A stretch of 64,000 nt of DNA, from NCBI GenBank assembly GCA_964588105.1, contig CAZPOG010000001.1:53-64052 (forward strand), in the 5' to 3' direction. Of this stretch, positions 37,533-61,400 are shown in pieces. Under the pieces are notes generated by a model. The model worked only from the letters and a program-made list of their open reading frames with translations, had not been told where the DNA came from and did no database searches. The position numbers and the translations under genes were made by a program. Each line of letters starts with the position of its first letter. The stretch's first letter is position 1. Source of the stretch: an uncultured Ruminococcus sp. (GTDB taxonomy: Bacteria; Bacillota; Clostridia; Oscillospirales; Acutalibacteraceae).

Positions 37533-37618
37533 GTTGTATCACCATTTAACATAATTAAGGTACATATTAAATCAAACTAGTAAAATTTTTGCTAATTTAT
37601 CTGTTGAGAAATAATACT

Positions 37619-38380: not shown

Positions 38381-38407
38381 TTTAATTCCTCTTTTCATAT
38401 ATTAGTT

Positions 38408-41328: not shown

Positions 41329-41403
41329 ACCGACACCGCCTTTCTTGATGATATTATATGATAAAATTGTTGTATATCACACCTACTAATAGTAGAGTAA
41401 ATG

Positions 41404-41922: not shown

Positions 41923-41924
41923 AA

Positions 41925-42695: not shown

Positions 42696-42697
42696 CG

Positions 42698-43357: not shown

Positions 43358-43361
43358 TTCT

Positions 43362-43844
43362 TCACCTTATCTTTGAAATCGTTTCTATTATTTTTGCGAA
43401 AAACAAATCCATATTATTAATGTTTTTCAAAAATGGGATGTGAATAAATACCATTTTTGTTTTCAGATTATACTGCTGAATAAAGTCCAAGCTGTTATAA
43501 TAAAGGCAGTTACAATATGATGTTCCCGTATTATGTGAAATCTTTGATGAGAGTCTATTTGATTCAAATACACTCTGTAATCGTTTACAATCAAAGTTTG
43601 TTTCTATTGCAGTTTTTCCGTTTCTTGCAGTTGTTTCAATATGAACTTTGTTCTTGATGTTCGGTCTTTGTCCAAAACTGAAAATATAGTCATATTTTTC
43701 GTTCGCAATCGCATTAATTAACTTTTCTGAATCCTTAACCTTATTGTTCGGCAAAATTAACGTATCAAATCCATTTGATCTTTCAATTAGCTGTTCTGCT
43801 GAACTTCCCCTAAATACAGTAAGTAATACTTTTGATTCGATCAT
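43362..43844 (-). CDS. pyroglutamyl peptidase I (C15)-like protein
   Basis: VLLTVF, SFGQ, IETTARN, GTSYCN, FIHIP. Confidence 0.7.
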   Translation of the reverse strand: MIESKVLLTVFRGSSAEQLIERSNGFDTLILPNNKVKDSEKLINAIANEKYDYIFSFGQRPNIKNKVHIETTARNGKTAIETNFDCKRLQSVFESNRLSSKISHNTGTSYCNCLYYNSLDFIQQYNLKTKMVFIHIPFLKNINNMDLFFAKIIETISKIR

Positions 43845-43956
43845 TTTTCAATTCATCTTTCAAATAATTTATACTTCAATGATACCATAAAAGCAGAATA
43901 TTAGCAACAAAAAATGCCGCCAAGCAGGAATTATCCTACTTGACGGCGGTATCAAT

Positions 43957-45969: not shown

Positions 45970-46022
45970 ACCACCGCTGTCCAAACTTTGCAAGTTTTGG
46001 CAGTGGTGAGTAAGTGCGCCCT
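45970..46022 (+). promoter_or_regulatory. MOBQ-type oriT
   Basis: TAAGTGCGCCCT (46011-46022) immediately after an inverted repeat, matching the RSF1010-family nic consensus. Confidence 0.85.
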
Positions 46023-46075
46023 TCGGGATAAAAGAAGAAACGCTCCGATTACTCGAAGCGTTCCGTTGATAATGA

Positions 46076-46291
46076 TTATTTGATTAGACTGCATAGATAG
46101 CTCTCCAACTGTTCTAATGACATCTCCCGTACTTGTGGAATAGCTTTCTCTAAAATAGCACCCTCTTGGATAAGCCGGTGTGTTCGTGCCGCTCGCTCTT
46201 TCACACGGTTGCGAGCCTGTGCTTCTTCCAGTCGGTGCTTTGCCTGTATGATTTCTTTTTCTGTGTATTTTAACAATTTGTATTCCTCCAA
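46076..46291 (-). CDS. DUF3847-like small protein (mobilisation accessory)
   Basis: ERAARTHRLIQEGAILE motif; upstream of mobA. Confidence 0.7.
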   Translation of the reverse strand: MEEYKLLKYTEKEIIQAKHRLEEAQARNRVKERAARTHRLIQEGAILEKAIPQVREMSLEQLESYLCSLIK

Positions 46292-46293
46292 TC

Positions 46294-46330
46294 AAAAAGG
46301 CGGCTTGTGAAATTGCTCTCACAAGCCGCC
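46294..46330 (-). terminator. terminator after the recombinase
   Basis: GGCGGCTTGTGA / TCACAAGCCGCC plus T-run on the minus strand. Confidence 0.7.
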
Positions 46331-46344
46331 GCAGCGTTAATTGA

Positions 46345-48463
<2,119 letters not shown>

Positions 48464-48611
48464 TGAAAATTGAAATAGATTTGTGTATAATAAAAGTCAG
48501 TCAGTTCCTTGATCAGTAACCCCTAAACTGAAACATTGATAAAAACACCTTAGCTGCGCAAAAATGCTCTCCAAAAGCCGCTTGAACAGTGGCTTTCAGA
48601 GAGCAAAAGCG

Positions 48612-48968
48612 TTACATTTCAGACTTGTTTGCTCGGTGCTTTCTCACACGTTCTGCTGTTTGCCGACGGCGAGCTTCTGCGGCACATTGCTCTGAACAAT
48701 ACGCCTTTCGTCCAACAGAAGCAAAGAGCTTGCCGCATTGTTGGCACTTCTTAGTGGGTATGCCTTTGAACAAAGCGAACAACTCGGCGTCGGTAGGTAA
48801 TACAGCTTGCTCGTAATACTTGCACAGCTTGCTGTCGGTAAAGCCTACGCTGAACATATAGCACTCCGTTTCAAGCGGCAGGCAGCCGTACTCTTTGCTG
48901 TAGTTGGCGCAACATTTAGTAACGTGTTTTCTGATACGGTTTTTATCTCTTTTTGATAATTCTGCCAT
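48612..48968 (-). CDS. cysteine-rich VLP-domain protein
   Basis: CCANY..GCLPL..C...CKYY..AVLP.D; C-terminal Zn finger. Confidence 0.75.
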   Translation of the reverse strand: MAELSKRDKNRIRKHVTKCCANYSKEYGCLPLETECYMFSVGFTDSKLCKYYEQAVLPTDAELFALFKGIPTKKCQQCGKLFASVGRKAYCSEQCAAEARRRQTAERVRKHRANKSEM

Positions 48969-49109
48969 AACGTTTCCTCCTTCTTTATTGATAGAAGTAA
49001 TCTGAAAAAAGGAAAACAGATTACCTCTCCATATATAGGAGAAATTCGGTACGGTTTGCGGAACTGTTTTTGAAAAAAATTTAAGAAATTTTGCGGGAGG
49101 TGATTTGCG

Positions 49110-49826
49110 GTGGATGATTACGAGGATATTTTGTCGGAACAGGAAGAAGAACAGCTCGCCAAAGCGTTAGCCGACGAACATCAGGCTGAATTAGAAGTAC
49201 AGCTCGAACAGGACGAGCAGCCGCCGCAGATTGACGAGCCGCCCGAAACCAAAAAGCTGAAAAGAGATTTACAGCGTGAAGCGCTCGACAGATTGGAGAA
49301 CGCCGCAAGGACAACCGCTGATTTTCAGAATGTGGTATCTTGGTGGAATCGTCTTGACAGTAACCGTGAGCGCAGGGAGCGTTATCACGAAGTCAGCCGG
49401 AGCGGTTTGGATATTCCGCTTGATTACGGTGCCGCGCTTGACGGCGAGGTTATTCCTTACGATGTCAATGATGTGCTGATAAAACAAATCCGCAAGGGCG
49501 ATTATATTGACGCAATCTTTCATTGTCCGTTTGAGATAAACGAATTGGTGACTGACGGCGAACTTTCAAAGATATTGAACAATTTATCCGATGATCACAA
49601 GGAAATTATCTTTAACAATATCGTGCGAGGGACAAGTACAAAAGCTCTCGGCAAAATCAGAGAGCAATCCGACAGAAATATCCGTAAGGTCAGAGCGACC
49701 GCCTTGAAGAAGATAAATAATGCATTACTGAAAGTGTTATTGAGCCGCAAAGAAAAAGGGTTTCCTCTCACGATGGAAGAAAAGCAGTTAATAGAAAAAG
49801 CCCTTGACGGTAGCAAGGGCAGTTAG
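49110..49826 (+). CDS. sigma-70 region 4-like regulator
   Basis: GGAGG RBS; C-terminal LSDDHKEI...STKALG...SDRNIRK HTH. Confidence 0.65.
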   Translation: MDDYEDILSEQEEEQLAKALADEHQAELEVQLEQDEQPPQIDEPPETKKLKRDLQREALDRLENAARTTADFQNVVSWWNRLDSNRERRERYHEVSRSGLDIPLDYGAALDGEVIPYDVNDVLIKQIRKGDYIDAIFHCPFEINELVTDGELSKILNNLSDDHKEIIFNNIVRGTSTKALGKIREQSDRNIRKVRATALKKINNALLKVLLSRKEKGFPLTMEEKQLIEKALDGSKGS

Positions 49827-49832
49827 TATAAT
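49804..49832 (+). promoter_or_regulatory. sigma70 promoter
   Basis: TTGACG-17-TATAAT. Confidence 0.75.
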
Positions 49833-49865
49833 GGTAATATATTATTCTGATTTCAGATTACACTG

Positions 49866-50798
49866 GTGATAGATATGAGCTTTCAATTTGAACATTCTAA
49901 TTCAACTTGGGTAAGGTACAGCGAATACAAATGGAAACAAGCTGAGAACGGCAAGCTGTATTTGACCGCTTGCTCCGACGCTCAGCCTACAATATACGAT
50001 CCGCTGAAAGAATATCAGCAGTTAGTCTTGGACGCTCTGTATATCGGGCGCTTGGGTATGAAGCAGGAGCATGACGATGAAGAAATACAAGCCGAAATAA
50101 AAGCCTTTGCGGAAAAGTATGGGCTGTTCGGATTGATGACAGCGTTACCGACCACACCTTCCTTTATGGACTATGAAGCGGTGTATCTGCCGAAGAATCG
50201 TTTTATCAAAAAGGAAACGATGTCAACCGAGAAATACCTTGCTTTATTTTTCCCATTTGACAAACCTGATGTAGTAAAACGCAGTGTGGAATCGTTATGG
50301 AATATAGAAGGCGACAATATGATGATGGCGCTCGCTATGACAATGAGCGACAGACCGATGGCGGTCAATATGAGCTTTCAGCGTCAGTATGCCGAGAGCT
50401 ACGAGTGGATGAAGCAGGTGTTTACCGATTGGGCGTTTAATGCCACAACAGTGTTTCTGTATTACAATGACTATAATAAGCTGGACGATGACTACAAACA
50501 GCTTATGCGGCAGAGTATCCGTGCGTTTGACGGTAACGCTCCGAGCTATCACATTGAGCTGCTTGAACAGCCTACGCTTGTATGGGATTTCCATTCGCTC
50601 TTGCTCGGCATTCAGATGATGTTGTCCTTTATGCTGACCGATGAACACAACCCTCTCCGATTCTGCAAGCAATGTATGAAGCCGTTTATTGCTTCCAGAC
50701 CAAGCGCTGTCTTTTGCAGCCCTCGATGCAAGAATCAGTATAACGTGTATAAGAACAGGGCGAAAAACAAAATGACTGATGAAGATGAAACGAATTAA
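49866..50798 (+). CDS. hypothetical protein with CGNR-like C-terminal Zn finger
   Basis: FCKQCMKPF...FCSPRCKN. Confidence 0.75.
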   Translation: MIDMSFQFEHSNSTWVRYSEYKWKQAENGKLYLTACSDAQPTIYDPLKEYQQLVLDALYIGRLGMKQEHDDEEIQAEIKAFAEKYGLFGLMTALPTTPSFMDYEAVYLPKNRFIKKETMSTEKYLALFFPFDKPDVVKRSVESLWNIEGDNMMMALAMTMSDRPMAVNMSFQRQYAESYEWMKQVFTDWAFNATTVFLYYNDYNKLDDDYKQLMRQSIRAFDGNAPSYHIELLEQPTLVWDFHSLLLGIQMMLSFMLTDEHNPLRFCKQCMKPFIASRPSAVFCSPRCKNQYNVYKNRAKNKMTDEDETN

Positions 50799-50816
50799 TT
50801 GATAGGGTGATAGATT

Positions 50817-51836
50817 ATGGCAAATGAGATTATCATAAACAACAATAATTCAAAGAGCACATATAATTCCATACGGCGCAGCATTATTTCTGCACAGCAA
50901 AAGGTTTATACTGCGGTCAATTCCGCTATGGTTTTCGCTTATTGGGAAATTGGCGAGCAAATATATAAAGCCTGCGGGGAAAACGAAAGAGCAGAGTATG
51001 GCAAGAATCTTTTGAATTATCTTTCCGACAAGCTGACTGCGGAATTCGGAAAAGGATACAGTGTTCAGGGACTTCGCAATATGCGGCAGTTTTACTGTAC
51101 ATATCCAATTCGCTCCACACTGTGTAGCGAATTGAGCTGGTCGCACTATCGTGTTCTGATGAGAATTCCGGATAAAACCACCCGTGAGTTTTACACGGAA
51201 GAATGCGCTAAATCTATGTGGAGTGTACGGCAGCTTGAAAGACAGATACATACGATGTATTATCAAAGACTGCTTGCGAGCCGTGATAAAGAAAGCGTTG
51301 CGGCAGAGATTCAGACAACAGAGCCTAAGCCCGAATATGAAAAAGCAATCAAGGATCCATATGTAATGGAATTCCTTCAAATCAAGCCCGATACTCATGT
51401 TTATGAAAGTGAAATTGAGCAGGCTTTGCTTAATCACTTGCAGGAGTTTTTACTTGAACTCGGACGAGGGTTTTCATTTGTTGCAAGACAAAAGCGATTT
51501 ACACTTGACGGGCAAGATTTCTTTATCGACCTTGTCTTTTATAACTATATTCTGAAATGCTTTGTCCTTTTCGATCTGAAAACAGGCACATTAACCCATC
51601 AGGATTTGGGACAAATGCAGATGTACGTCAACTACTACACAAGAGAATTGATGAACGAGGGCGACAATCCTCCGATCGGTATTGTTCTCTGTGCCGATAA
51701 GAGTGATGCCGTAGTCAAATACACTTTGCCGGAGGATAACAATCAAATTTTTGCTTCCAAGTACTTTACATATCTTCCCACGGAGGAAGAGTTTAAGAAA
51801 GAGCTTAATCTTGACGATTATGCAAAACTGAATTAA
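50817..51836 (+). CDS. YhcG/DUF1016 PD-(D/E)XK nuclease-domain protein
   Basis: YWEIG, LSWSHY, KDPY..FL, LLELGRGF, IDL.FY, DLK, GQM..Y. Confidence 0.93.
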   Translation: MANEIIINNNNSKSTYNSIRRSIISAQQKVYTAVNSAMVFAYWEIGEQIYKACGENERAEYGKNLLNYLSDKLTAEFGKGYSVQGLRNMRQFYCTYPIRSTLCSELSWSHYRVLMRIPDKTTREFYTEECAKSMWSVRQLERQIHTMYYQRLLASRDKESVAAEIQTTEPKPEYEKAIKDPYVMEFLQIKPDTHVYESEIEQALLNHLQEFLLELGRGFSFVARQKRFTLDGQDFFIDLVFYNYILKCFVLFDLKTGTLTHQDLGQMQMYVNYYTRELMNEGDNPPIGIVLCADKSDAVVKYTLPEDNNQIFASKYFTYLPTEEEFKKELNLDDYAKLN

Positions 51837-51857
51837 ATTTATCTTTGATATTATAAG

Positions 51858-51889
51858 CTCCTGCAAGAACAACAACTTGCAGGAGTTTT
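51858..51889 (+). terminator. intrinsic terminator
   Basis: CTCCTGCAAG / CTTGCAGGAG plus TTTT. Confidence 0.7.
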
Positions 51890-52072
51890 CACTTTTATGA
51901 GTTATATATTACATAATTGAAATTGATATTACGGTGTTCACAAAATTGTATATGTTTTTTCGTGCTTTTTCGACAAGTTTTAGCTTTAAAATTCTATATT
52001 AATAAGCTGTCAAATTATAAAAGAAAATGATATAATAATAATAAATACTTGAAAATATTTATGAGGCATTAA

Positions 52073-52828
52073 ATGAATAATGTTATAGATTATTTCAGCA
52101 AACGTGCATCTGTATATAATAGTAGTGATTGGGTTAACGACAAAGATATTCTCCATACTATTTTAAAGTGTTTGAATTCAACAGAAGCTAGTTTTTTAAA
52201 TATATTAGATTTGGGAGCAGGTACTGGTGCAGTATCAAATTATTTACTATATAATCTCTTATCAGATACAAGAATAGTGGCTTTAGATGTATGTGCGGAA
52301 ATGTTGCAAAAGAATTGTGAGCAAAGAATTCTAAAAATTTTATCGTCGGCAGAAAAAATGCCGTTTATTGATAATAGCTTCGATGTTATTGTGTCTAGAC
52401 AATGTATGCATTACATTGACGATCTGAATAAAGCTATCGATGAAATAAAACGAGTATTAAAATGTGGAGGAATATTCGTCTTATCACAGTTTGTTCCTCT
52501 TGAAACTGAGACAAAGAATTTTTGGATAGATATGATGAAGGTTAGGCAACCATTGCGAAAGAATTTTTATTCAGAAAAAGATTGGATTGAGTTGTTCATA
52601 CAACATGGATTTAGTGTTAATTCAGTTGAAAGATATTCCAAACCATATTCAATTAAAAAATGGGCTCAAACATATAATGTAGAACAAAATGTGGAGATAT
52701 CACCGTATCAGACTATATTAAAAAACGCTCCCATAGAATATATTAAGGAATACGGAGTTAGAGAAAAAAATAACGATATTTTGATTAATAGTTTCGGAGT
52801 TACAATATCTTTTCAAAAAGATAAATAG
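52073..52828 (+). CDS. class I SAM methyltransferase
   Basis: ILDLGAGTG, ALD, AEKMPF.D.SFD. Confidence 0.9.
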   Translation: MNNVIDYFSKRASVYNSSDWVNDKDILHTILKCLNSTEASFLNILDLGAGTGAVSNYLLYNLLSDTRIVALDVCAEMLQKNCEQRILKILSSAEKMPFIDNSFDVIVSRQCMHYIDDLNKAIDEIKRVLKCGGIFVLSQFVPLETETKNFWIDMMKVRQPLRKNFYSEKDWIELFIQHGFSVNSVERYSKPYSIKKWAQTYNVEQNVEISPYQTILKNAPIEYIKEYGVREKNNDILINSFGVTISFQKDK

Positions 52829-52859
52829 TATTGAAAAATTATTGAATTAAGGTGGTATT

Positions 52860-53672
52860 TTGTTATACAAAATTCTTAAAAACATTATCTCTTCTATTAC
52901 AGTAATTGTTGCCATCGGATATTTGGTATATAGCATAATTGTTAATGCAAATTCTCTTTATGAATATATGATATTGTCATTATTGATTCTAATTGCAACA
53001 ACATTTATTATAGAAGGATTAGATGAAAAACGAAAATGGAAAAGCATAGATAATGACATAGTGACTAGAATTTCCAGCATATCTGATTGCCAAATATATA
53101 CTTATAATAATACAAAAGAATGGGTGCAGAAAATAATAGAACTAACGAAGGAAGGTTCACATTCCTTTGATTCCGCTGCACTTGATAGTGCAACAAGAAG
53201 CAAAGCTAAATCACACTATTCTAGCATTTGGAATTATTTAAATATGTGCAGTAAAGAAAAAAGAATTACTTTTAGGCATATTACGCGTGTTAGAAATAAT
53301 AACTTCTTAAATCTGTTATATCGGATTCATTCTGGGAATTCAAAAAATAATAGTTACTTTGCTTATTATGAATTGCCCAATAGCTTTTCGTTTCCAACTT
53401 TTGGAGTAATTGACGGGAGATATATTGCAACTAGAAGTCCATACCAACAAGGAGTTACTCCATGTTATATGATAATTGATAATACAAAGATATCAAAATT
53501 TTTTATCGATTATTTTGAAGACCTTTGGAATAGTTCAAATAAACTTGAAAAGGTTTCTCAATTAAAAGACATATACGAAAAATTTGAATCTGGATATACA
53601 GAAGAAGAAAAAAAGAACTGTCTTGAATTAATCAAAAAAATTGAAAAAGAAGGCATCGTTGATGATATTTGA
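52860..53672 (+). CDS. 2TM membrane protein with PLD/TrmB-like soluble domain (tentative)
   Basis: Two N-terminal TM helices; F.VID ... F..YFEDLW.SS ending. Confidence 0.55.
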   Translation: MLYKILKNIISSITVIVAIGYLVYSIIVNANSLYEYMILSLLILIATTFIIEGLDEKRKWKSIDNDIVTRISSISDCQIYTYNNTKEWVQKIIELTKEGSHSFDSAALDSATRSKAKSHYSSIWNYLNMCSKEKRITFRHITRVRNNNFLNLLYRIHSGNSKNNSYFAYYELPNSFSFPTFGVIDGRYIATRSPYQQGVTPCYMIIDNTKISKFFIDYFEDLWNSSNKLEKVSQLKDIYEKFESGYTEEEKKNCLELIKKIEKEGIVDDI

Positions 53673-54414
53673 TATTTGTGAGTTGAATAAAATATCAGAT
53701 GATACGAATATCTGGGGAGGAAAAGCTGTTTCTATTTGCAAGTTGATGAATAACGGCTTTCGCGTTCCAAAAGGTATCGTTCTCTCAACAAAAGTATTTG
53801 ATAAATATCAAAGCAAAACGCTTATCATTAATTCATTGGAAGAAGAATTGAATAGAATTTGTAAAGACTTTTTTAATTGTAATAATTGTGGATTAATTAT
53901 ACGATCATCTGCAAACATTGAAAGCGGTAAAGAGTACTCATGTTGTGGAATATTTGATACATATGTATATAATCCATCATTTTCAATAACTCATTATGTA
54001 AAAAAAGTCTGGGATTCAGCTTATTCAAATTTTGCTATCGATTATTGTAACAAGATTAATTATCCAAGTTGTAAAATTAAAATGGGAGTAATAATTCAAG
54101 AAATTTATATAGGTGATTATAATGCAGTAATTCAAACACACGATATAGTTAATAACAAGAATCGTATTGTTTTAGAATATAAAAGTGGTGATATTGATAG
54201 CGTTGTAAATGGATTTGTAGATGCAAATACCGTATTTATTGATTATGAACAAAGTAATAGTAAAAGTTTTTCGGATGCGGTTTTGAAAAAGAGAATAATA
54301 TGCCAATTAATCAACGATTGTTATAAAGCTGAAAAAGTTTTCAACTCTCATGTTGAACTTGAAGCACAGATTCATAATAACAATATTTTTTATGTACAAG
54401 CTAGAGAAATATAA
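53662..54414 (+). CDS. PEP/pyruvate-binding (dikinase ATP-grasp) domain protein
   Basis: GGKA..L..GF.VP.G, IIRSSA..E, G.F.T, MGVIIQE. Confidence 0.85.
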   Translation: MIFDICELNKISDDTNIWGGKAVSICKLMNNGFRVPKGIVLSTKVFDKYQSKTLIINSLEEELNRICKDFFNCNNCGLIIRSSANIESGKEYSCCGIFDTYVYNPSFSITHYVKKVWDSAYSNFAIDYCNKINYPSCKIKMGVIIQEIYIGDYNAVIQTHDIVNNKNRIVLEYKSGDIDSVVNGFVDANTVFIDYEQSNSKSFSDAVLKKRIICQLINDCYKAEKVFNSHVELEAQIHNNNIFYVQAREI

Positions 54415-54428
54415 TAGGAAGTGAGTAA

Positions 54429-56150
54429 ATGAAAATCAAAGGATTGTGTGTTAGTTGTGGTACAGCAAAAGGACCGGCTTACATTATAAAAAGCGAGAAC
54501 AAGCAAAGAATAAGTGATATATCCTTATTGCCAAATACAATTCTGGTAATGAAATCATTAGATAGAAGTATTCTAGTTAACCTAAATAAGAATGTTATAG
54601 GTGTTGTAGCAGAACACGGAAACATAGGAAGCCATGGTTCAGGGATACTTCGACAGTTAGGTATACCTTGCGTTCTCAGAATAAACGGAGCAACTGAATT
54701 ACTAAAAAACGGCGAGTTAGTAGAAATCTGTGATGCTGAAAACTGTATTATTTGTTTTGATCAAAAAGGAAATAACGATCAGCAAGAGCTAAGCAAAAAT
54801 ACAGACTTCGAGTACCAATCAATTTCTAAACCACAGTTTAGCATAGATGAGATTCGTCCAGTTGAAAAGTGGATAAAACCAAGGCCTGGAAGAGTGTATC
54901 AAAAGCTACGTTATGATATTATTAGTGATGTATATGTGTCTAGCGTGGAATACATTTATAAAATGCCTTCAGCATTAACAAGGCAAGATAGCAATGGCGT
55001 AATTGAAGTATTCGGCACACCTAGTCTACCAGATTTGTGTAGCTTTGTTTTATGTAATCCTTATTGGCTAATAGAAAAAGCTAAGGAACGCTCCACTGAG
55101 TTTAATAGAATAAAAAATGACATGGCAAATCTTTTGAGATATGACGATTGTAATAGTGTTAATGATATTTGCTATGTTTTTAATGAATCAGTTAGACTAT
55201 ATAAATCAATTTTTAAATACTTATTTCTGTCACAAGTTACATCCGATGAAATGCTTGATATCTATCTTGATTTTTTGAATTTAATCACAGGAAAAGAAAT
55301 GTCAAAGGATGTGTTTAATCTTAGGTCAGATTATGTTGAAAAGAGCTTGTCATCAGGACATGATCCAGGCGGATTTCAAAAATGGGGCGAGAATGTAACA
55401 CCACATATATGGGATGGTGAAATTGATTACACCCCTTTCCCTATAGATAATAGCATCATAGATAAAATAGAAAACTCAGAAGCAGATAATCAGAGATTAA
55501 TGAGAGACTATTCATCCTTTAGAGTTGTTATTCCACTTATCTATCAACTGTCAGAAGAGTTTTTTTATATGTCTAAGAGTATAAACTCTTTCCTAAACTG
55601 GAGTATAGTAAATCTTCACAGATTATTATCTCAGAAGAAACTATTAAATTCCTCACTAAATGATTTTTATAATATACCTCTGAATGAGGTGTTTAAATAC
55701 ATAAAACTATTAAAAGGAGATTATAGTATGGACAACAAATTTATGGAAGCTTTTCATCCTGATGAAACTTTAGTAAAAGATTTTCAACATTGGGTTGTTC
55801 TTGTTAGGGAGAATCAATTAACTCTAGGAAACTGTTATTTTGTATTGAAACGTGAGATTCCGTTTTTTGGTCAAATGAATTCTGAAGAAAGTGCTGAATT
55901 AAGTTGCGTAATGAAATGGTATGAAGAAAAGTGCAGATTATTATTTGGTGCCGAGAAGTTTAATTATGTTGCTGCAATGATGAGGGATAATTTCGTACAC
56001 TTTCATGCTTTTCCAAGATATTCAAAGCCTGTATCAAGATACGGTATTGAGTGGAAAGATGATAGATGGCCCAGATTACTTCAATTTGGTCCAAGTGTAT
56101 GTGAACCAAAGTATTATCAACTGATAAAAGAAGATTTAAAAGAAAACTAA
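54429..56150 (+). CDS. PEP-utiliser phospho-His swivel domain + helical domain + C-terminal HIT-like domain
   Basis: G..KG, GNIGSHGSGILRQLGIPCV; C-terminal QLTLG ... MMRDNFVHFHAFPRY. Confidence 0.8.
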   Translation: MKIKGLCVSCGTAKGPAYIIKSENKQRISDISLLPNTILVMKSLDRSILVNLNKNVIGVVAEHGNIGSHGSGILRQLGIPCVLRINGATELLKNGELVEICDAENCIICFDQKGNNDQQELSKNTDFEYQSISKPQFSIDEIRPVEKWIKPRPGRVYQKLRYDIISDVYVSSVEYIYKMPSALTRQDSNGVIEVFGTPSLPDLCSFVLCNPYWLIEKAKERSTEFNRIKNDMANLLRYDDCNSVNDICYVFNESVRLYKSIFKYLFLSQVTSDEMLDIYLDFLNLITGKEMSKDVFNLRSDYVEKSLSSGHDPGGFQKWGENVTPHIWDGEIDYTPFPIDNSIIDKIENSEADNQRLMRDYSSFRVVIPLIYQLSEEFFYMSKSINSFLNWSIVNLHRLLSQKKLLNSSLNDFYNIPLNEVFKYIKLLKGDYSMDNKFMEAFHPDETLVKDFQHWVVLVRENQLTLGNCYFVLKREIPFFGQMNSEESAELSCVMKWYEEKCRLLFGAEKFNYVAAMMRDNFVHFHAFPRYSKPVSRYGIEWKDDRWPRLLQFGPSVCEPKYYQLIKEDLKEN

Positions 56151-56193
56151 TGCCACGAAATAAATAATATCAAAAAAGTTTTAAACTATATTT

Positions 56194-56229
56194 GCCCGCT
56201 GTCAGCGATCATGCTGATAGCGGGCTTTC
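56194..56229. terminator. hairpin between convergent genes
   Basis: GCCCGCTGTCAGC / GCTGATAGCGGGC. Confidence 0.6.
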
Positions 56230-56230
56230 C

Positions 56231-56608
56231 TTATACATATACAATTTCATTCAATACGATTTCTTCGGCGCGGTTGCGGATATTATTCATACGCTGTACC
56301 CACGCCATTTGGTCGGCAGCTTTGAGTGCTTCGGTAACTCCTTCCTGATTAGCCATAGCTTTTACAAGGCTTTCCATTCGCTCGCTGCATTCTTCATCAA
56401 TTTCCGCTAAATGTTCGGACAGCTTGCAAGATGTAAGCAAGTTGGTATAGAGAATTGGACGATGCTTTTTGAGATAACGCCTGCGGCGCTGTCCCCATAC
56501 GCCGATGTTATACTCCGGCTGTTTCGGCATTTTCAGATTTGGGAGCAAGTAGTCTCCCTTTTGGATGTAAGTACCGCCAAGCTGTTCAAAAATAGTTTTC
56601 TGTTTCAT
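56231..56608 (-). CDS. tnpV: TnpV family protein
   Basis: FEQLGGTY...GDY.LPNL, IG.WG..R..YLK, EGVTE.LKA.DQMAWV.RMN. Confidence 0.92.
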   Translation of the reverse strand: MKQKTIFEQLGGTYIQKGDYLLPNLKMPKQPEYNIGVWGQRRRRYLKKHRPILYTNLLTSCKLSEHLAEIDEECSERMESLVKAMANQEGVTEALKAADQMAWVQRMNNIRNRAEEIVLNEIVYV

Positions 56609-56750
56609 AATAGGCTCCTTTCGTGATAATGGTTTCAACAGTTTGGATGAATATTAAACTCCTTTCCTACAACTGCATTTCAATTCACCACAAATGAGCC
56701 GCAGTCATATGTACTAAGGTAGTAGAAACTACCCTTTACATAATAGCTCT

Positions 56751-57154
56751 TGCAGGTGATGCGTGTTCAAATGGGTAGTAACAACGACCTGAAACCGCTC
56801 GCCCCACACACGGCGGGCAAATTCCATTCCTACCTTCTGAGCAAGCTCAGGAGATATCTTTTGTTCTTTGAAGCTCAGATAACCGTGATACGCCTGTATA
56901 CCATCAGTCTTACCATAGAGCAGCTTAATATTGATAAACTGCTCTCGTGCAAAAGACGCATCACAGTTGATTCCATCAACAAACAGCGTTTTTTCTGTTT
57001 TTTCTTCGTCCTTTGCATAAGCAAGAACATCGGCAAGAGCCTGATATTGTTCTTCGCTATACTGTTGTTTCCTTTTTGTCTTTGCCGGATTCATAGCATA
57101 GTTAATTATTCGGTCAAAAGAATAATTAACTGTCCAAATTTTACTTACTGCCAT
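56751..57154 (-). pseudogene. ICE MOBP relaxase, 5' part (to VVVTTHLNTHHL)
   Basis: MAVSKIW, YAMNP.KT, GINC, AYHGY.SF, VVVTTH; breaks at the TG junction. Confidence 0.9.
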
Positions 57155-57483
57155 TTCAGGTCACTCTTATCCGGACGGATGAAACGGCGCTCCAGATCTG
57201 CCCTGAACCTCTGCCACGCTTCTGCTTCTCTGTACAGCATCGGAGCGTCAATGAAGTTCAGAGAGTTTGCCTTCTTCGCCAGCTGATTGATGTTGCTGCT
57301 GATCAAGGATAGCTTATTCATCGCGTCAAAGAATGACCGGTCAGGTTTTTCCTTGGGGTGATAGCCTCTGAGCAGTAGGCGAATGAGCGCGGCTTCTGAC
57401 ATACAGGCACACTCAGCTTTATGACGGAGATCGTCGGCGTCGTCTTTGGAGAACCAAAACTGTTTTTTGATTCCTTTTCTCAT
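57145..57483 (-). CDS. mobC: plasmid mobilisation relaxosome protein MobC
   Basis: L..KA.C..MSEA.LIR.LL.G, L..I.SNINQLAKKAN; overlaps the relaxase start. Confidence 0.88.
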   Translation of the reverse strand: MRKGIKKQFWFSKDDADDLRHKAECACMSEAALIRLLLRGYHPKEKPDRSFFDAMNKLSLISSNINQLAKKANSLNFIDAPMLYREAEAWQRFRADLERRFIRPDKSDLKWQ

Positions 57484-57504
57484 TATGATCACTTCCTTCT
57501 TCCT

Positions 57505-57590
57505 ATGGGGGTTATTAGGGGACGGCTCCCCTAACGAGCTTTTTACCGTTCGGACTCCTGTGGGAGTACGAAGGATCTGCTTGCTACGAT
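57505..57590. promoter_or_regulatory. putative ICE oriT region upstream of mobC
   Basis: Hairpins TTAGGGGA/TCCCCTAA (57515-57534) and TTCGGACTCC/GGAGTACGAA; position typical for such elements. Confidence 0.4.
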
Positions 57591-57628
57591 TGAACAGAGT
57601 TCTTCCGAAAATCAAATCAAAAGCGTCA

Positions 57629-58381
57629 TCAGCGTGCATCGCCGCGGTCCTGAGGCTTGATCGGGACAGCGAGAATCTCACCGTTCACTCGCATAAAAGT
57701 CTCCAGATATTGGAATCGTTTTGTGTATTTTTTGATCATTTCGGGAGTCAGACTCTCAAAATTCTCCGATTCATACGGTGCGTTTGCCAAGAAGAAATTT
57801 CCGGCGATGATATCAAGCATCGGTCCTCTTTTCCCGTCACTCTCATCATAAATGGCACGGTTAAGAGGCAGGCTGCTGAGCTTCCCTTCCTCATTACAGA
57901 TAATAGCAACCTCGTCATCAAACGGCATCAACTCTTCAATATATCCACCGACGAGCTGCTGCATATCCTTCAACTCAGGCTTGATATACTTCACCTGAGG
58001 AGCCTCACCCGCTGCGATATACAGAACGGCTATTGTGTCGGGAGTCGAGATATCCCGCGTCTTTTCCGGCTCAAATCCGATCTCTTTATATCCGAAAGAA
58101 TCGCAGAAATAGAAGCCGTTTTTCACATTGTCGGCGTCTGATACCTCTACGACGTCTGATACAGATAACGACCTGCCGCGATAACTGTCAGGCTGATCGT
58201 GATTAAATTTCCTGTATACATCTTCAAGGGTTTTGCAGTCGATTTCGCCGCAGAAAACCTTATCATAAAGCTCGCTTTTGATTTCTGTACTACCGAAAAG
58301 ATGCTTCATCTTATCAAGACTCACAAACGCATAGTGTTCAGAATCCCGTTCAGTATTGATCTGATAAATACTGATTTTCAT
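57629..58381 (-). CDS. YodL domain + DUF3846-like protein
   Basis: IYQIN, Y..VF.G, F.....YRGRSLSVSDVV, FCDSFG; Q.LVGG.IE, CNEEGK. Confidence 0.75.
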   Translation of the reverse strand: MKISIYQINTERDSEHYAFVSLDKMKHLFGSTEIKSELYDKVFCGEIDCKTLEDVYRKFNHDQPDSYRGRSLSVSDVVEVSDADNVKNGFYFCDSFGYKEIGFEPEKTRDISTPDTIAVLYIAAGEAPQVKYIKPELKDMQQLVGGYIEELMPFDDEVAIICNEEGKLSSLPLNRAIYDESDGKRGPMLDIIAGNFFLANAPYESENFESLTPEMIKKYTKRFQYLETFMRVNGEILAVPIKPQDRGDAR

Positions 58382-58417
58382 AATGTCTCACCTTCCTTTT
58401 TTATAAAATTTTTTGTT

Positions 58418-61400
58418 TTATCTTTCATCACGGCTGCTTCGGCTGCGGTCGGAAATATCGTCCTCAACCTCGGCAGTCTCGCCGCTGAAGAGCTCAGCGT
58501 CATCCTTTCTGTCCATATCCAGTAAAGCGTTGAGCTCGTTCAAACGGTTGGTTTTTGTCCGCAGTTCTTCTTCCTGCGGAAACGGTTTTTTGACCTCGAC
58601 CTTTGCGGTCTCATACTGCTTTTGGATATTTTCAAGATCGGATTCCATCAGCTCCAGCCGTTTTTCCAAGCCTTCAAGGACATTATCAAGACGGGTGATA
58701 TTGCCGAAAACATCCGTTCCGAGTTCAACATCGTGGCTGATCCTGCCCTTAAGTCTGATCTCATAATGACGGGAGATCGTATCGAAATACAGCTCCATAT
58801 CAAAGCCGCGATAAGAACCGAGATGAAAGGCATCGGATGACTGCATCGCTTTACAGGCGTCAAGAATTGCTTGTCCCGCTTTTGCTTTGTCATCATAAAA
58901 AACGCCCTTGATCTCCATTCCGACGAAAGCGTCGTTGATGGATTTCGGGTACTGCTGTACTATCCGTATATTCTCTTTTAACCCTTCGATCGCTCCTTTT
59001 ACGGATGAGATCTTCTGAGGATAATACTTCAGGATTTTATCCTCGAGATCATACTTTTCCGACAGAAAGCCTGCCTTGATCAACTGCAGCTTCTGAACGT
59101 CGATATCCAGCTCCATCTTCTCCTTGATGAACGGATTACCCGTAGCCAGCATTTTGATTTCGGCATATGACAGTGCCATGAGATCAACATCTTCTGCGGA
59201 GCGCACGGGCGTTTTGGAGGTCATAATCTGAGAACAGAACTTCTGTTTGCTCTCGACGAGCTGATACAGATATGCGTCAAAAGTCTCTTCGGTAACATAA
59301 CGATAGATATCCACTTCATCGTTTTCATTACCCTGACGGATGATGCGGCCTGAACGCTGTTCCATGTCGCTCGGACGCCAAGGACAATCAAGATCGTGCA
59401 TAGAAACAAGCTTATTCTGCGCGTTGGTTCCGGCGCCCATTTTCTGGGTGGAGCCAAGCAGAATCCTCACCTCTCCCCTGCGCACCTTACGGAACAAATC
59501 AAGCTTCTGCGCCTCGGTCTTGGCATCGTGAATAAAGGCGATTTCGTTCTCGGGAATACCGCGTGCGATGAGCTTTTCCCTGATATCCGTATAGACTGAG
59601 AACTCATTTTTCTTCGGTGTGGAAAGGTCGCAGAACAGAAGCTGAGTGAGTTGTTTCTCAGCCGTTTTCTGCCAGATATCATAAACATTCTGCACACAGG
59701 CGTTGACCTTGCTGCCTTCAAAATCAGGCAGAATCGGATTGAGCAGACGCTGGTCCAACGCGAGTTTTCTGCCGTCGTTGGTAATATTGAGCATATTATC
59801 CACGCTGGCGTCGACCATCCTATTACGGATTTTTTCCGCTCTTTTGGCAAGTCCCGCGACCATATCCTTCTGGACCTGAGACGGTTTGACGGCGATATTA
59901 TGGTAGTTTGCTTTCGGAACAGGCAACTCAAGCATATCCGAAGTCTGGATATCTGCCACCTGCCGAAACATTGACATCAACTCGGGAAGATTATAAAAAC
60001 GGGCGAACCGCACCTTGGAACGATAGCCGGTTCCCTCCGGCGTCAGCTCAACTGCCGACACTGTTTCACCGAAGGTTGACGCCCACGCGTCAAAGTGCTG
60101 GAGGTCATTCTTCACAAGCGTTTCATACTGTAAATACCGCTGAATCGTATACAGCTCCACCATAGAATTAGAGATTGGCGTTCCTGTGGCAAACACGGTG
60201 CCGCGGCTGCCTGTCAGCTCATCGAGATACCTGCATTTCATAAAAAGATCAGAGGACTTCTGCGCCTCAGTCTGCGCGATTCCGCCGACATTTCTCATTT
60301 TTGTATACAGATACAGATTCTTATAGTAGTGGCTTTCATCGACAAAAAGGCGGTCGACACCTAATTCCTCGAAGGTGACGACATCATCCTTGTTATCCTG
60401 TGCGTTGAGTTTTTCGAGCTTTGTCCGGATCGCACGGCGGCTCTTTTCGAGCTGCTTTACCGTGAATTTATCACCGTGATTCTCGCTTAATTCAAGAATA
60501 CCGTCGGTGATATCCTCCAGCTGTCTTTTCAGCATTGCCTTCTGACGTTCTATGCTGATCGGGATTTTTTCGAACTGACTGTGACCGATAATCACTGCGT
60601 CATAGTCGCCTGTGGCGATCCTTCCGCAGAACCGGCGTCGGTTTTTCTTCTCAAAATCCTTCTTGGTGGAAACTAATATATTCGCGGCGGGATACAACTG
60701 TAAAAACTCCGCCGCCCACTGTTCCGTCAGGTGATTCGGCACCACAAACAGCGATTTATTGCACAAACCGAGCCTCTTGCTTTCCATTGCCGCCGCAGCC
60801 ATTTCGTAGGTCTTACCGGCGCCTACCGCATGAGCGAGCAATGTATTTCCTCCGTAAAGGATATGAGCCACCGCGTTACGCTGGTGCTCCCGAAGCGTGA
60901 TCTCAGGATTCATACCGACAAAGCTGATATGAGATCCGTCGTATTCTCTCGGACGGTATGTGTTGAATTTATCGTTATACAGACGGCACAGCCGTTCCCG
61001 GCGTGACGGATCAGACCATATCCAGTCCTGAAAGCTCTGCTTGACGTTTTCCTGCTTTGCAAGAGCAAGAGCTGTTTCCTTCTTGTTCAAGACAGGTTTA
61101 CGCTTGCCGTTGGGTTCTTCGATGTAATCGTAGATCCTGACGTCTTTCAAATTGAGCGTCTGTTCAATGATCTGATAAGCGTTGATCCTGTCTGTCCCGA
61201 AGGTGGAATATGCCTTGACATTTGTTCTGTCATATGTTTTGTTTTCTATATTCCATTCTCCTGTCAGCGGCGAAAAATGAACTTTGATTTTCCATCTGGC
61301 GTAGTATGGCGTGTCCAGCAGATCATAGATAAAATCCTGTACATCCTCGATCGGGAGCCACGTTGCGCCGAGACGAACAGATATCTCGGACGCCTTCAGA

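What the first reader, a model, noticed from the sequence alone, without database searches (positions are those of the whole stretch)
52073..56150. Methyltransferase - 2TM protein - split PEP-dikinase - HIT operon
Four tightly packed AT-rich genes. The dikinase is split into an ATP-grasp gene and a gene with the phospho-His swivel domain first, then a novel helical domain, then a HIT-like domain (FVHFH; first His of the triad lost, central His kept). No pyruvate-binding barrel is evident, so the acceptor is probably not pyruvate. Precedents are rifampin phosphotransferase and Campylobacter Cj1418, a glutamine kinase working with methyltransferases in phosphoramidate synthesis; HIT enzymes cleave P-N and nucleotidyl bonds. 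It could be an undescribed small-molecule or nucleotide phosphorylation/methylation pathway for resistance, toxin synthesis or anti-phage signalling via the membrane protein.
Basis: partly seen in the sequence, partly recalled or inferred. Interest (0 to 1): 0.8.

Follow-up and report, generated by a model that had tools for sequence, protein, structure and literature searches.

The report
Mobile split-dikinase, HIT, membrane-protein cassette
Four tightly packed genes on a mobile element encode a two-part ATP-driven phosphate-transfer enzyme fused to a HIT nucleotide enzyme, together with a methyltransferase and a membrane-anchored ligand-binding protein; the set recurs as a unit on mobile DNA and beside known anti-phage genes, matches no described system, and is a good candidate for a new small-molecule-based bacterial conflict system, though its function is untested.

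Summary
One promoter-to-terminator unit (52007-56225, 30% GC inside about 46% GC mobile DNA) encodes four proteins. M is a class-I SAM methyltransferase. A is a 2-TM protein with a cytoplasmic PLD-like fold that lacks the catalytic His and Lys. B is a stand-alone PPDK_N ATP-grasp. C-D has an RPH-type phosphohistidine swivel (His69), a helical domain with no match in PDB or BFVD, and a HIT fold (F522-V-H524-F-H526).

A-B-C-D occurs in the same order in about 12 diverged lineages. C and D are usually separate genes and fused at least twice independently. M is facultative in this cassette type. Orthologues of M, B and the D-type HIT recur in several other cassette types, with NUDIX, inositol-1-phosphate synthase, extra swivel proteins, membrane proteins or a DUF4062/NIR NADase.

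The cassettes are rare (1% of genomes in the class), sit on mobile elements, and often lie next to defence genes. No PADLOC model, paper or phage record matches them.

Best reading (about 0.45): an undescribed conflict/defence cassette built on a two-component small-molecule dikinase coupled to HIT nucleotidyl chemistry. Rivals are metabolite or envelope biosynthesis and drug inactivation. The substrate is unknown.

The parts
52007..52036 (+). Promoter-like site (CTGTCA, 18 nt, TG-n-TATAAT) about 40 bp upstream of the first gene
   Evidence: 10 of 12 consensus matches with an extended -10. A consensus match only. It lies after a terminator-like hairpin at 51855-51888 that closes the upstream gene.
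52073..52828 (+). M: class-I SAM-dependent methyltransferase (251 aa), small-molecule type; not a DNA N6/N4 methylase family hit
   Evidence: Methyltransf_11 at 7e-22, and BioC/UbiE-like hits all below their family cut-offs; orthologues at 33-59% identity occur in cassette types 1, 3, 4 and 6, whereas another class-I MTase in the same window is only 25% identical.
52860..53672 (+). A: 2-TM membrane anchor plus a cytoplasmic PLD-like domain that lacks the HKD His and Lys (270 aa)
   Evidence: AF2 pLDDT 84. Foldseek hits to TrmBL2/TrmB, Nuc 1byr, Zucchini, NucT, PLD3 and PssA (E 1e-6 to 1e-3); by my own motif comparison (I had no residue-level structural alignment), F178 and T180 occupy the HxK positions and D185 is kept; R113, R192, Y195 and W223 are invariant and there are many conserved Arg. 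No Pfam or PADLOC hit.
53641..54414 (+). B: stand-alone ATP-grasp (PPDK_N) nucleotide-binding subunit of a two-component dikinase (257 aa)
   Evidence: PPDK_N at 5e-19. PEP synthase 9dae/8a8e and the RPH ATP-grasp 5hv6 (E 5e-8 to 3e-6). K28, R88-S-S, Q153, E239, E241 and Q253 are invariant across 14 homologues from five cassette types.
54429..54770 (+). C, N-terminal phosphohistidine swivel domain (residues 1-114), with His69 in G-S-H-G
   Evidence: profile against RPH 5fbs at E 3e-12; rmsd 2.0-2.2 A and 32% identity to RPH-Lm. H69 and its flanking residues are at least 90% conserved.
54786..55706 (+). C, family-specific helical acceptor domain (residues 120-426) with invariant RPxRxYQxLR and YQLSEE motifs
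   Evidence: alignment and invariant residues; no PDB or BFVD match; only 99 clusters among 1.84 billion representatives; fused elsewhere to CTP_transf_like, HD, IMPase or a C-terminal swivel.
55725..56150 (+). D: HIT-fold domain (residues 433-573), F522-V-H524-F-H526-A-F-P-R-Y, fused to C in this window
   Evidence: It is 61% identical to the separate 141-aa gene of L012. It is the most conserved component (51-76% identity to the window's copy across the 10 aligned loci).
56194..56225 (+). Intrinsic-terminator-like hairpin (14-bp stem, 9 GC pairs, T-rich tail) 44 bp after the last stop codon

Best explanation
The four genes form one transcription unit carried as cargo on a mobile element. They belong to an undescribed, horizontally mobile family of cassettes whose engine is a two-component small-molecule dikinase of the rifampin-phosphotransferase (RPH) type, coupled to a HIT enzyme.

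Proposed mechanism, step by step:
1. B binds ATP and loads the beta-phosphate onto His69 of the swivel domain of C-D, releasing AMP and Pi. This is inferred from homology and from conserved catalytic residues.
2. The swivel carries the phosphate to an anionic small-molecule acceptor held in the family-specific helical domain. This is inferred; the invariant Arg, Tyr and Glu motifs suggest a phosphorylated or nucleotide-like substrate.
3. The HIT domain acts on that product through a covalent His524-NMP intermediate. It most likely transfers a nucleotidyl group to give an NDP-linked compound, or else hydrolyses one. This is inferred from three observations: the domain is fused to C here and lies next to it everywhere else; the fusion arose twice; and in sister cassettes HIT is replaced by a HIGH-type nucleotidyltransferase-like protein.
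4. M methylates the substrate or the product. This is inferred.
5. The catalytically dead PLD-like domain of A, tethered to the membrane by two TM helices, binds the product and acts as the membrane output or effector, or else scaffolds the pathway at the membrane. This is inferred.

The biological role I consider most likely is a conflict or anti-phage function based on making or consuming a small phospho- or nucleotidyl-metabolite.
For: Anatomy and conserved catalytic residues.

Obligate co-occurrence: A-B-C-D in the same order in about 12 lineages at 33-68% identity.

C-D coupling: the fusion occurs in two separate clades of the C tree.

Non-orthologous partners of the acceptor domain: HIT, CTP_transf_like NTase (the P0124 fusion; the type-2 N368 protein matches it at BLAST 7e-11), HD and IMPase.

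HIT-dikinase link: 5 of 5 sampled close D-type HITs sit beside a PPDK_N gene, and 4 of those 5 loci also carry an M-type MTase.

Membrane or effector-like partners appear in the cassette types that carry a HIT or NTase-like gene (types 1, 2, 4, 5 and 6). They include a 2-TM protein, a 118-aa multi-TM protein, TM fused to the A6 domain, and a 477-aa protein with C-terminal TMs. They also include a DUF4062-A6 domain-phosphatase fusion. DUF4062/NIR is a defence NADase (bioRxiv 10.64898/2026.05.01.722283, 2026.06.25.731849, 2026.09.04.749371).

Mobile and defence context: the cassette lies in a 30% GC island between a TnpX-like serine recombinase and TnpV, next to a truncated relaxase. The gene directly upstream is PADLOC candidate PDC-S02 (5e-144). 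Thoeris ThsA/ThsB, an Avs4-like N-terminus and PDC-S34 are in the same window. Relatives lie next to PDC-S06, PDC-S02, an ATPase-Toprim protein, a type III R-M system, Cas9 or a TIR protein.

Rarity: the D-type HIT was found in 4 of 399 genomes of the class and in none of 8 same-family genomes.
Against: No experiment exists, and no substrate is known.

Genes 2-4 match no defence HMM, so the defence link rests on context only. Most neighbours of relatives are housekeeping genes.

No component is an obvious phage sensor.

Sister cassettes carry inositol-1-phosphate synthase. On an Arthrobacter plasmid they also carry an APS kinase, a sulfotransferase and a DegT aminotransferase. That composition looks like metabolite (cyclitol) biosynthesis.

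More distant D-like HITs sit in polysaccharide or lipid head-group loci next to cytidylyl- and phosphatidyl-transferases.

I suspected that A's PLD-like domain is equivalent to the A6 domain of sister cassettes, but hhalign does not support this (probability 2%).

HD and IMPase partners are hydrolases, so 'nucleotidyl transfer' is not the only reading of the HIT step.
Confidence: 0.45

Rival explanations
1. Small-molecule or envelope head-group biosynthesis with no role in phage defence. The dikinase phosphorylates a polyol, sugar or amide. HIT (or the NTase in sister cassettes) converts the phosphate ester into an NDP-activated donor. M methylates it. The membrane-anchored PLD-like protein positions or transfers the group at the inner face of the membrane. 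This is the logic of CDP-glycerol, CDP-inositol or Campylobacter O-methyl-phosphoramidate pathways, or of a secondary-metabolite (cyclitol) pathway.
For: MIPS is present in types 4 and 4b. The Arthrobacter plasmid locus combines MIPS, HIT, a C'-like protein, an APS kinase, a sulfotransferase and a DegT aminotransferase. The acceptor domain is fused to IMPase and to CTP_transf_like. Distant D-like HITs lie next to a cytidylyltransferase in a polysaccharide locus and next to a CDP-alcohol phosphatidyltransferase and an NTase. The PLD fold includes PssA, which uses CDP-diacylglycerol.
Against: By motif comparison A lacks the HKD His and Lys, so it is unlikely to be a transferase. Its soluble domain is predicted to be cytoplasmic, and the cassette has no flippase or glycosyltransferase. 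The host genome has no MIPS. The cassette is a rare mobile cargo in defence-rich DNA. A DUF4062 NADase is fused into one sister cassette.
Confidence: 0.27
2. Xenobiotic or antibiotic inactivation, as with rifampin phosphotransferase. B plus C phosphorylate an incoming drug or toxin, and the HIT and MTase process it further. The cassette would then be a resistance cargo of the ICE.
For: The swivel and ATP-grasp are closest to RPH among solved structures. ICE and transposon cargo is the classic place for resistance genes. Two-component relatives phosphorylate phenolic xenobiotics (PMC12167813).
Against: The acceptor domain shows no detectable similarity to the RPH rifampin-binding domain. The invariant Arg-rich motifs suggest an anionic, metabolite-like substrate. 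The obligate HIT and membrane partners have no role in known drug kinases. Sister cassettes make their own precursor with MIPS. NCBIfam resistance models score far below their cut-offs.
Confidence: 0.12
3. An ordinary PEP synthase or PPDK that has been split or degraded, in other words central metabolism or a pseudogene remnant.
For: The top NCBIfam names are 'phosphoenolpyruvate synthase'.
Against: All scores are 10-40 times below the family cut-offs. No PEP/pyruvate TIM barrel is present in the cassette. A bona fide 881-aa PPDK sits beside a relative as a separate gene. The frames are intact and conserved across lineages.
Confidence: 0.01

Closest known systems
Two-component small-molecule dikinases HpeHI, PpsAB (phenylphosphate synthase) and CreHI, and single-chain rifampin phosphotransferase RPH-Lm (PDB 5fbs, 5hv1); PMC12167813, PMC4844700
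   Same: An ATP-grasp on one polypeptide and a phosphohistidine swivel plus acceptor domain on another. No PEP/pyruvate barrel. The swivel is 28-33% identical to RPH at rmsd about 2 A. By homology the expected chemistry is ATP plus acceptor giving AMP, Pi and phospho-acceptor.
   Different: The domain order is reversed: swivel then acceptor, instead of acceptor then swivel. The acceptor domain has no detectable sequence or fold match to the RPH/HpeH substrate domain. A HIT enzyme is an obligate partner, fused here. There is an obligate membrane-anchored partner. The cassette is mobile-element cargo rather than part of a catabolic operon.
Campylobacter jejuni O-methyl-phosphoramidate pathway (Cj1418 glutamine kinase, Cj1416 cytidylyltransferase, Cj1415 kinase, Cj1419/1420 methyltransferases); recalled from my own knowledge, not tested here
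   Same: The same logic of a dikinase-type kinase, then nucleotidyl activation, then methylation. Sister cassettes carry NTase-like, APS-kinase-like or AAA_18 kinases and the same MTase subfamily.
   Different: There are no homologues of Cj1415, Cj1416 or Cj1417 in the window, and no capsule locus or transferases. Nucleotidyl chemistry would come from a HIT fold. The acceptor domain is unrelated as far as the tests show.
HIT superfamily, nearest the 2oik-like bacterial HIT proteins and the Rv2613c Ap4A phosphorylase / Fhit / GalT branches
   Same: The HIT alpha/beta fold. The nucleophile-position His (His524), the following His526 and the Pro-Arg are conserved.
   Different: The first His of the triad is Phe. 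Pfam's HIT model does not detect it. It forms a distinct clade that is always next to a PPDK_N gene in the five loci sampled.
Non-catalytic PLD-fold ligand-binding domains (TrmB sugar-binding domain) and single-HKD PLD nucleases (Nuc, NucT, Zucchini)
   Same: The fold of A's cytoplasmic domain (Foldseek E 1e-6 to 1e-4).
   Different: The HKD His and Lys are replaced by Phe178 and Thr180 (my motif comparison). The domain is tethered by two N-terminal TM helices. The ligand is unknown.
MTase-HIT-4TM-dikinase/MazG cassettes noted earlier in this scan (AI notes e1-2675278, e1-4853569, e1-4023712; unpublished, unchecked)
   Same: The same parts list in outline: methyltransferase, HIT, small membrane protein and an RPH-like dikinase, on mobile DNA, proposed as a defence system.
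   Different: There the MTase is Dam-like (DNA), the dikinase is one 850-890-aa chain fused to MazG, and the membrane protein has 4 TM helices. I could not compare sequences, so homology of the HIT or dikinase parts is untested.

Membership tests
PEP synthase / pyruvate phosphate dikinase | C-terminal PEP/pyruvate-binding TIM barrel (PEP-utilizers_C) | tested here: not met
   no PF02896 hit in any of the four proteins; all PEP synthase and PPDK equivalog scores are far below their cut-offs (for example 78 against 883 bits).
RPH-type / two-component small-molecule dikinases (RPH, HpeHI, PpsAB, CreHI) | PPDK_N ATP-grasp with conserved nucleotide- and Mg-binding residues | tested here: met
   PPDK_N at 5e-19. 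K28, R88-S-S, Q153, E239, E241 and Q253 are invariant in 14 homologues.
RPH-type / two-component small-molecule dikinases (RPH, HpeHI, PpsAB, CreHI) | Phosphohistidine swivel domain with a conserved catalytic His | tested here: met
   His69 in GSHG is at least 90% conserved. Profile E is 3e-12 to RPH 5fbs, with rmsd about 2 A.
RPH-type / two-component small-molecule dikinases (RPH, HpeHI, PpsAB, CreHI) | Acceptor domain homologous to the RPH rifampin-binding / HpeH substrate domain, placed N-terminal to the swivel | tested here: not met
   the profile finds no second stretch on RPH; the Foldseek alignment to RPH covers only the roughly 110-residue swivel. The order here is swivel then acceptor. 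Foldseek reports one local alignment per target, so a weak fold similarity cannot be fully excluded.
RPH-type / two-component small-molecule dikinases (RPH, HpeHI, PpsAB, CreHI) | ATP to AMP plus Pi with transfer of the beta-phosphate to a small molecule | not testable with these tools
   Needs an enzyme assay.
HIT superfamily | HIT alpha/beta fold | tested here: met
   Rv2613c, 2oik, Fhit, GalT and others at E 6e-5 to 1e-3, with TM-score up to 0.74 normalised to the target; profile E 2e-5 to 2oik.
HIT superfamily | H-x-H-x-H-x-x histidine triad with the central nucleophile His | tested here: inconclusive
   the motif is F522-V-H524-F-H526-A-F. The central and third His are invariant and the first His is Phe in all 10 homologues. 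Catalysis was not assayed.
Phospholipase D (HKD) superfamily | PLD fold | tested here: met
   Nuc 1byr (TM-score 0.68 normalised to the target), NucT, Zucchini, PLD3, PssA and TrmB.
Phospholipase D (HKD) superfamily | HxK(x)4D catalytic motif | tested here: not met
   the equivalent stretch is F178-P-T180-F-G-V-I-D185 in all 34 homologues, assigned by my own comparison with the canonical motif because no residue-level structural alignment was available. No His or Lys occupies those positions.
Known or candidate anti-phage systems in PADLOC-DB v2 | HMM match of the component proteins | tested here: not met
   no hit for A, B or C-D. M gives only a generic MTase-domain hit to mad2.
Campylobacter MeOPN (Cj1415-Cj1420) pathway | Presence of the cytidylyltransferase, gamma-glutamyl hydrolase and APS-kinase-like partners | tested here: not met
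   the cassette has only four genes, and none belongs to those families.

The most novel reading that the evidence does not exclude
The cassette represents a new class of bacterial immune system. An ATP-driven phosphohistidine dikinase and a HIT enzyme together make (or destroy) a methylated, nucleotide-linked small molecule. A dead PLD-fold receptor on a two-helix membrane anchor reads that molecule to trigger membrane failure or dormancy. The wider superfamily swaps acceptor modules, precursor-making enzymes (MIPS, NUDIX, P-loop kinases) and outputs (TM proteins, DUF4062/NIR NADase) around a constant core of HIT, ATP-grasp and MTase. That would be analogous to CBASS, Thoeris or Pycsar but with a chemically different signal or antiviral metabolite.
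Probability: 0.3. Interest if true: 0.88.

Novelty: new variant of a known kind. Interest (0 to 1): 0.68.

Why it matters
Phosphohistidine dikinases are known from central metabolism, drug resistance and aromatic catabolism, but not as the engine of a mobile multi-gene cassette. Three features of this cassette are new. The acceptor domain has no structural relative in PDB or BFVD. The dikinase is evolutionarily locked to a HIT enzyme, with two independent fusions. The cassette also has a membrane-tethered PLD-fold protein that has lost its catalytic residues.

If this is a defence system, it adds a new enzymology to bacterial immunity and links it to a superfamily that spans Clostridia mobile elements and Actinomycetota plasmids. 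If it is a biosynthetic pathway, it points to an unknown methylated phospho- or nucleotidyl-metabolite made by gut and rumen anaerobes. Either way the acceptor domain defines a new substrate class for this kinase family, and the cassette is small enough (4 kb) to test directly.

Tried and rejected
**Ordinary PEP synthase.** Rejected: there is no barrel and scores are far below cut-offs.

**Homology of the middle domain to the RPH rifampin-binding domain.** Not found by a whole-protein profile, a domain profile or Foldseek.

**Phage origin.** No relatives in IMG/VR. No tblastn hit in 50,697 phage records. BFVD gave only generic HIT and swivel hits.

**Plasmid backbone.** No DNA match for 46000-58400 in PLSDB.

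**Equivalence of A's PLD-like domain with the 'A6' domain of sister cassettes.** The motifs look similar by eye, but hhalign gives 2% probability, so I do not claim it.

**Weak D-like HITs in three genomes of the class.** None has a dikinase nearby, so only the close D clade is dikinase-linked.

**Endogenous inositol phosphate as substrate in this host.** The genome lacks MIPS.

**Literature.** Five full-text searches found no description of such a cassette.

**Flanking repeats.** No convincing direct or inverted repeats delimit the cassette itself.

Full report
**1. What is in the window**

Four + strand ORFs occupy 52073-56150. The spacing is a 31-bp gap, a 32-bp overlap and a 14-bp gap. A terminator-like hairpin (51855-51888) closes the upstream gene. 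A promoter-like site with an extended -10 lies at 52007-52036, and a strong terminator-like hairpin (14-bp stem) lies at 56194-56225. The genes therefore look like one transcription unit.

The unit is 30.3% GC, inside DNA of 45-47% GC. That DNA is mobile:
- a TnpX-like large serine recombinase with DUF4368 (46345-48249)
- TnpV (56231-56638)
- a relaxase truncated after 141 aa (56729-57154)
- NikA-like and YodL/DUF3846 genes
- a 1818-aa SNF2/N6-methylase protein (58418-63874)
- a complete MobA/MobL relaxase at 43957-45654

**2. The proteins**

*M* (251 aa) is a class-I SAM methyltransferase. Methyltransf_11 scores 7e-22, and the BioC/UbiE-like hits all fall below their family cut-offs.

*A* (270 aa) has no Pfam, NCBIfam or PADLOC family.
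- Its AF2 model (pLDDT 84, 34-sequence alignment) shows two N-terminal helices (2-28 and 33-74, hydrophobic) and an alpha/beta domain.
- Foldseek places that domain in the PLD fold. Hits are the TrmBL2/TrmB ligand-binding domain, Nuc, NucT, Zucchini, PLD3 and PssA, at E 1e-6 to 1e-3.
- By my own comparison with the canonical motif, the stretch that corresponds to HxK(x)4D reads F178-P-T180-F-G-V-I-D185 in all 34 homologues. I had no residue-level structural alignment. The catalytic His and Lys are therefore absent.
- Many Arg, Tyr and Asp residues are invariant.
- I read A as a non-catalytic ligand-binding domain on a membrane anchor. Lys and Arg residues flank the TM pair on the N- and C-terminal sides, so both ends are probably cytoplasmic. 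This is read from the sequence.

*B* (257 aa) is a stand-alone PPDK_N ATP-grasp (5e-19).
- It is closest to PEP synthase and to the RPH ATP-grasp among solved structures.
- K28, R88-S-S, Q153, E239, E241 and Q253 are invariant in 14 homologues drawn from five cassette types.

*C-D* (573 aa) has three parts.
- Residues 1-114 form an RPH-type swivel. Profile E is 3e-12 to 5fbs, rmsd is about 2 A, identity is 32%, and His69 in G-S-H-G is conserved.
- Residues about 120-430 form a helical domain with the invariant motifs RPxRxYQxLR, SxYV, DPGxSQxW and YQLSEE. It has no match in PDB by profile and none in PDB or BFVD by fold.
- Residues 433-573 form a HIT fold. Profile E is 2e-5 to 2oik, and Foldseek hits Rv2613c Ap4A phosphorylase, Fhit, GalT and many HIT proteins.
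- The HIT motif is F522-V-H524-F-H526-A-F-P-R. His524, His526 and most of the surrounding residues are invariant.
- There is no PEP/pyruvate barrel.

**3. Is the association real?**

Yes. Homologues of C-D were found only in gut, rumen and related metagenomes and MAGs (Oscillospiraceae, Lachnospiraceae, a yak-rumen bacterium). In every locus with enough sequence, tblastn finds A, B, C and D in that order, at 33-68% identity.

In most loci C (about 427 aa) and D (about 141 aa) are separate genes. The L012 D gene is 61% identical to window residues 437-572. The fused state occurs in two separate clades of a C-protein tree: window plus L001, and L005, which nests with unfused L027, L012 and L019 at 99/95 support. 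Two independent fusions are strong evidence that C and D act on the same molecule.

M is present in the window clade and in L020, and absent from the other type-1 lineages.

**4. A wider superfamily**

The acceptor domain alone, searched as a profile against 1.84 billion representatives, finds only 99 clusters. Besides stand-alone and swivel-linked forms, it is fused to:
- two tandem CTP_transf_like (HIGH-type) nucleotidyltransferase domains (P0124)
- an HD domain (P0164)
- an inositol-monophosphatase-family domain (P0171)
- a C-terminal rather than N-terminal swivel (P0145, P0176, P0152, P0175)

'Type 2' loci (L008-L011) replace A and D with a 368-aa protein and a 118-aa multi-TM protein. The N-terminal half of the 368-aa protein matches the NTase domains of P0124 (BLAST 7e-11), although its HxGH motif is degenerate.

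'Type 3' loci keep B, C and M but add an 803-829-aa protein, a B12-type radical-SAM enzyme and an MBL hydrolase.

The D-type HIT family is larger, with 399 hits. Five of five close members that I looked up lie beside a PPDK_N gene.
- Four of those five loci also carry an MTase that is 33-43% identical to M. An unrelated class-I MTase in the same window is only 25% identical over 100 residues.
- These cassettes carry distant C-like proteins with the same swivel His motif (SSFATHGANILR, NIFSHSMNVLR). BLAST links them to the C family at 1e-6 to 1e-13.
- They also carry NUDIX, myo-inositol-1-phosphate synthase, an AAA_18 P-loop kinase, a lone 114-aa swivel and Y_phosphatase3 domains.
- They contain a conserved roughly 210-aa 'A6' domain. 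It occurs alone, behind 3-4 TM helices, or between a DUF4062 domain and a phosphatase.
- DUF4062 has recently been shown to be a TIR-like NADase effector of anti-phage systems: NIR, Swarozyc and Evangelion (bioRxiv 10.64898/2026.05.01.722283, 2026.06.25.731849, 2026.09.04.749371). None of those papers mentions a HIT, dikinase or MTase partner.
- The module A6 domain, HIT-D, MIPS and C' also occurs on Arthrobacter plasmid pZXY24, next to an APS kinase, a sulfotransferase and a DegT aminotransferase.

**5. Context**

The gene directly upstream of the cassette (50817-51836, YhcG/DUF1016 PDDEXK) is PADLOC candidate PDC-S02 (5e-144). The same window carries Thoeris ThsA(Macro)/ThsB (1e-73 and 1e-77), a protein with an Avs4-like N-terminus, and PDC-S34.

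Relatives lie next to:
- PDC-S06, an AAA_13 protein (L001)
- PDC-S02 again (L019)
- an ATPase-Toprim OLD-like protein (L027)
- a type III R-M system (L005)
- Cas9 or a TIR protein (L008, L009)
- ParAB, excisionase and Rep genes (L012)
- three serine recombinases (L036)
- a YobI ATPase (L039)

Many other neighbours are housekeeping genes, as expected for islands inserted at varied sites. The D-type HIT occurs in 4 of 399 genomes of the host's class and in none of 8 same-family genomes. No phage copies were found.

**6. How it most likely works**

*Shown by homology and conservation.* B and C form a two-component dikinase of the RPH type. This class is now characterised biochemically for HpeHI, where the ATP-grasp subunit charges a His on the partner, which then phosphorylates a small molecule (PMC12167813; RPH in PMC4844700).

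*Inferred.*
- The acceptor is probably anionic or nucleotide-like, given the invariant Arg cluster.
- The HIT domain handles the phosphorylated product. Three observations make nucleotidyl transfer to a phosphate ester (giving NDP-X) the most economical reading: the recurrent fusion, the alternation with an NTase-like partner, and the structural proximity to nucleotidyl-phosphorylase and -transferase HITs (Rv2613c, GalT).
- The HD and IMPase fusions show that hydrolysis is a live alternative.
- M would methylate the substrate or product.
- A would bind the product and act at the membrane.

*Biological role.* I favour a conflict or anti-phage role (0.45). The grounds are mobility, rarity, defence-rich neighbourhoods, the modular exchange of membrane and NADase partners, and the absence of any housekeeping logic.

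The main rival (0.27) is a biosynthetic or envelope head-group pathway. It is supported by the MIPS, aminotransferase, sulfotransferase and cytidylyltransferase associations of relatives. It is weakened for this window by the missing HKD residues in A, the cytoplasmic topology, and the lack of MIPS in the host genome.

Drug inactivation (0.12) and an ordinary PEP synthase (0.01) are less likely.

**7. Comparison with known systems and novelty**

The enzyme core works like the two-component dikinases. It fails one membership feature: the homologous acceptor domain, in the usual order. It also adds obligate HIT and membrane partners.

It is a HIT-superfamily member by fold, with a variant triad. 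A is PLD-fold but not an HKD enzyme.

No PADLOC v2 model and no paper found in five searches describes the cassette.

Earlier AI notes from this scan describe a thematically similar 'Dam MTase, HIT, 4-TM, dikinase/MazG' cassette. I could not test whether the two are homologous.

I class the finding as a new variant of a known enzyme kind, embedded in an undescribed system.

**8. Limits**

The defence association is contextual and not statistically benchmarked. The substrate is unknown.

Noticed in passing
window 50817-51836 (+): The YhcG/DUF1016 PDDEXK nuclease gene directly upstream of the cassette matches PADLOC candidate single-gene system PDC-S02 (E 5e-144). A homologue (E 1e-134) lies directly downstream of the cassette in the unrelated Lachnospiraceae locus L019 (10120-11142). 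The recurrence may be coincidence or a loose association.
   Followed up: partly
window 20024-21368 (+): A Thoeris pair: a ThsA Macro-domain type (E 1e-73) and a ThsB TIR-like protein (E 1e-77).
   Followed up: partly
window 4787-13159 (-): A 1349-aa protein whose first 223 residues match the Avs4 N-terminal domain (4e-33). It is followed by a 991-aa protein with no PADLOC hit and a 393-aa protein matching candidate system PDC-S34 (1e-197).
   Followed up: no
window 56231-57154 (-) and 46345-48249 (-): TnpV sits against a relaxase (PF03432) truncated after 141 aa. A TnpX-like serine recombinase with DUF4368 lies 8 kb away. This suggests a Tn4451-like element or a deletion that brought the low-GC cassette into an older ICE. 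I did not map the boundaries.
   Followed up: partly
window 36000-43900 (-): A second low-GC (24-39%) cargo block on the opposite strand. It carries an HTH-methyltransferase fusion (40261-41328), another class-I MTase (41925-42695), a Peptidase_C15-like protein (43362-43844) and several ORFs with no family. The three genes at 37619-40076 flagged by another first-reader note gave no PADLOC hit.
   Followed up: partly
L017 2-7309; L032 613-6875; L033: 'Type 3' relatives combine the ATP-grasp, an 803-829-aa unknown protein, a B12-binding radical-SAM enzyme, the swivel/acceptor protein, an MBL-fold hydrolase and the M-type MTase. In L017 they lie next to a LytTR/histidine-kinase pair. They have no HIT and no A protein. 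This looks like a separate small-molecule pathway built on the same kinase.
   Followed up: no
L036 4310-12199; L039 6001-12432; L051; L053 (Arthrobacter plasmid pZXY24, ARZXY2_4903-4908): Cassettes with a D-type HIT, two different swivel-type proteins served by one ATP-grasp, myo-inositol-1-phosphate synthase, NUDIX, the A6 domain and the M-type MTase. They are conserved between Clostridia mobile elements and an actinobacterial plasmid, and are often preceded by a DUF4062 (NIR NADase) gene.
   Followed up: partly
L040 6677-8524: A single 615-aa protein joins DUF4062 (a TIR-like NADase defence effector), the A6 domain of the HIT/dikinase cassettes and a Y_phosphatase3 domain. A second Y_phosphatase3 gene follows it.
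   Followed up: no
P0124 (863 aa), P0164, P0171 (representative-library proteins): The otherwise orphan acceptor domain is fused to two tandem HIGH-type nucleotidyltransferase domains (one with an intact WHFGH motif, one degenerate), to an HD domain, or to an inositol-monophosphatase/CysQ-family domain. I could not look up their genomic contexts.
   Followed up: no
L046 9782-10702 (genome G045); L054 (Roseomonas plasmid): More distant D-like HIT genes sit immediately beside a TagD-like cytidylyltransferase in a polysaccharide locus. On Roseomonas plasmids they sit beside a CDP-alcohol phosphatidyltransferase, an acylglycerol kinase and a nucleotidyltransferase. This hints that the HIT subfamily deals with NDP-alcohol compounds.
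   Followed up: partly
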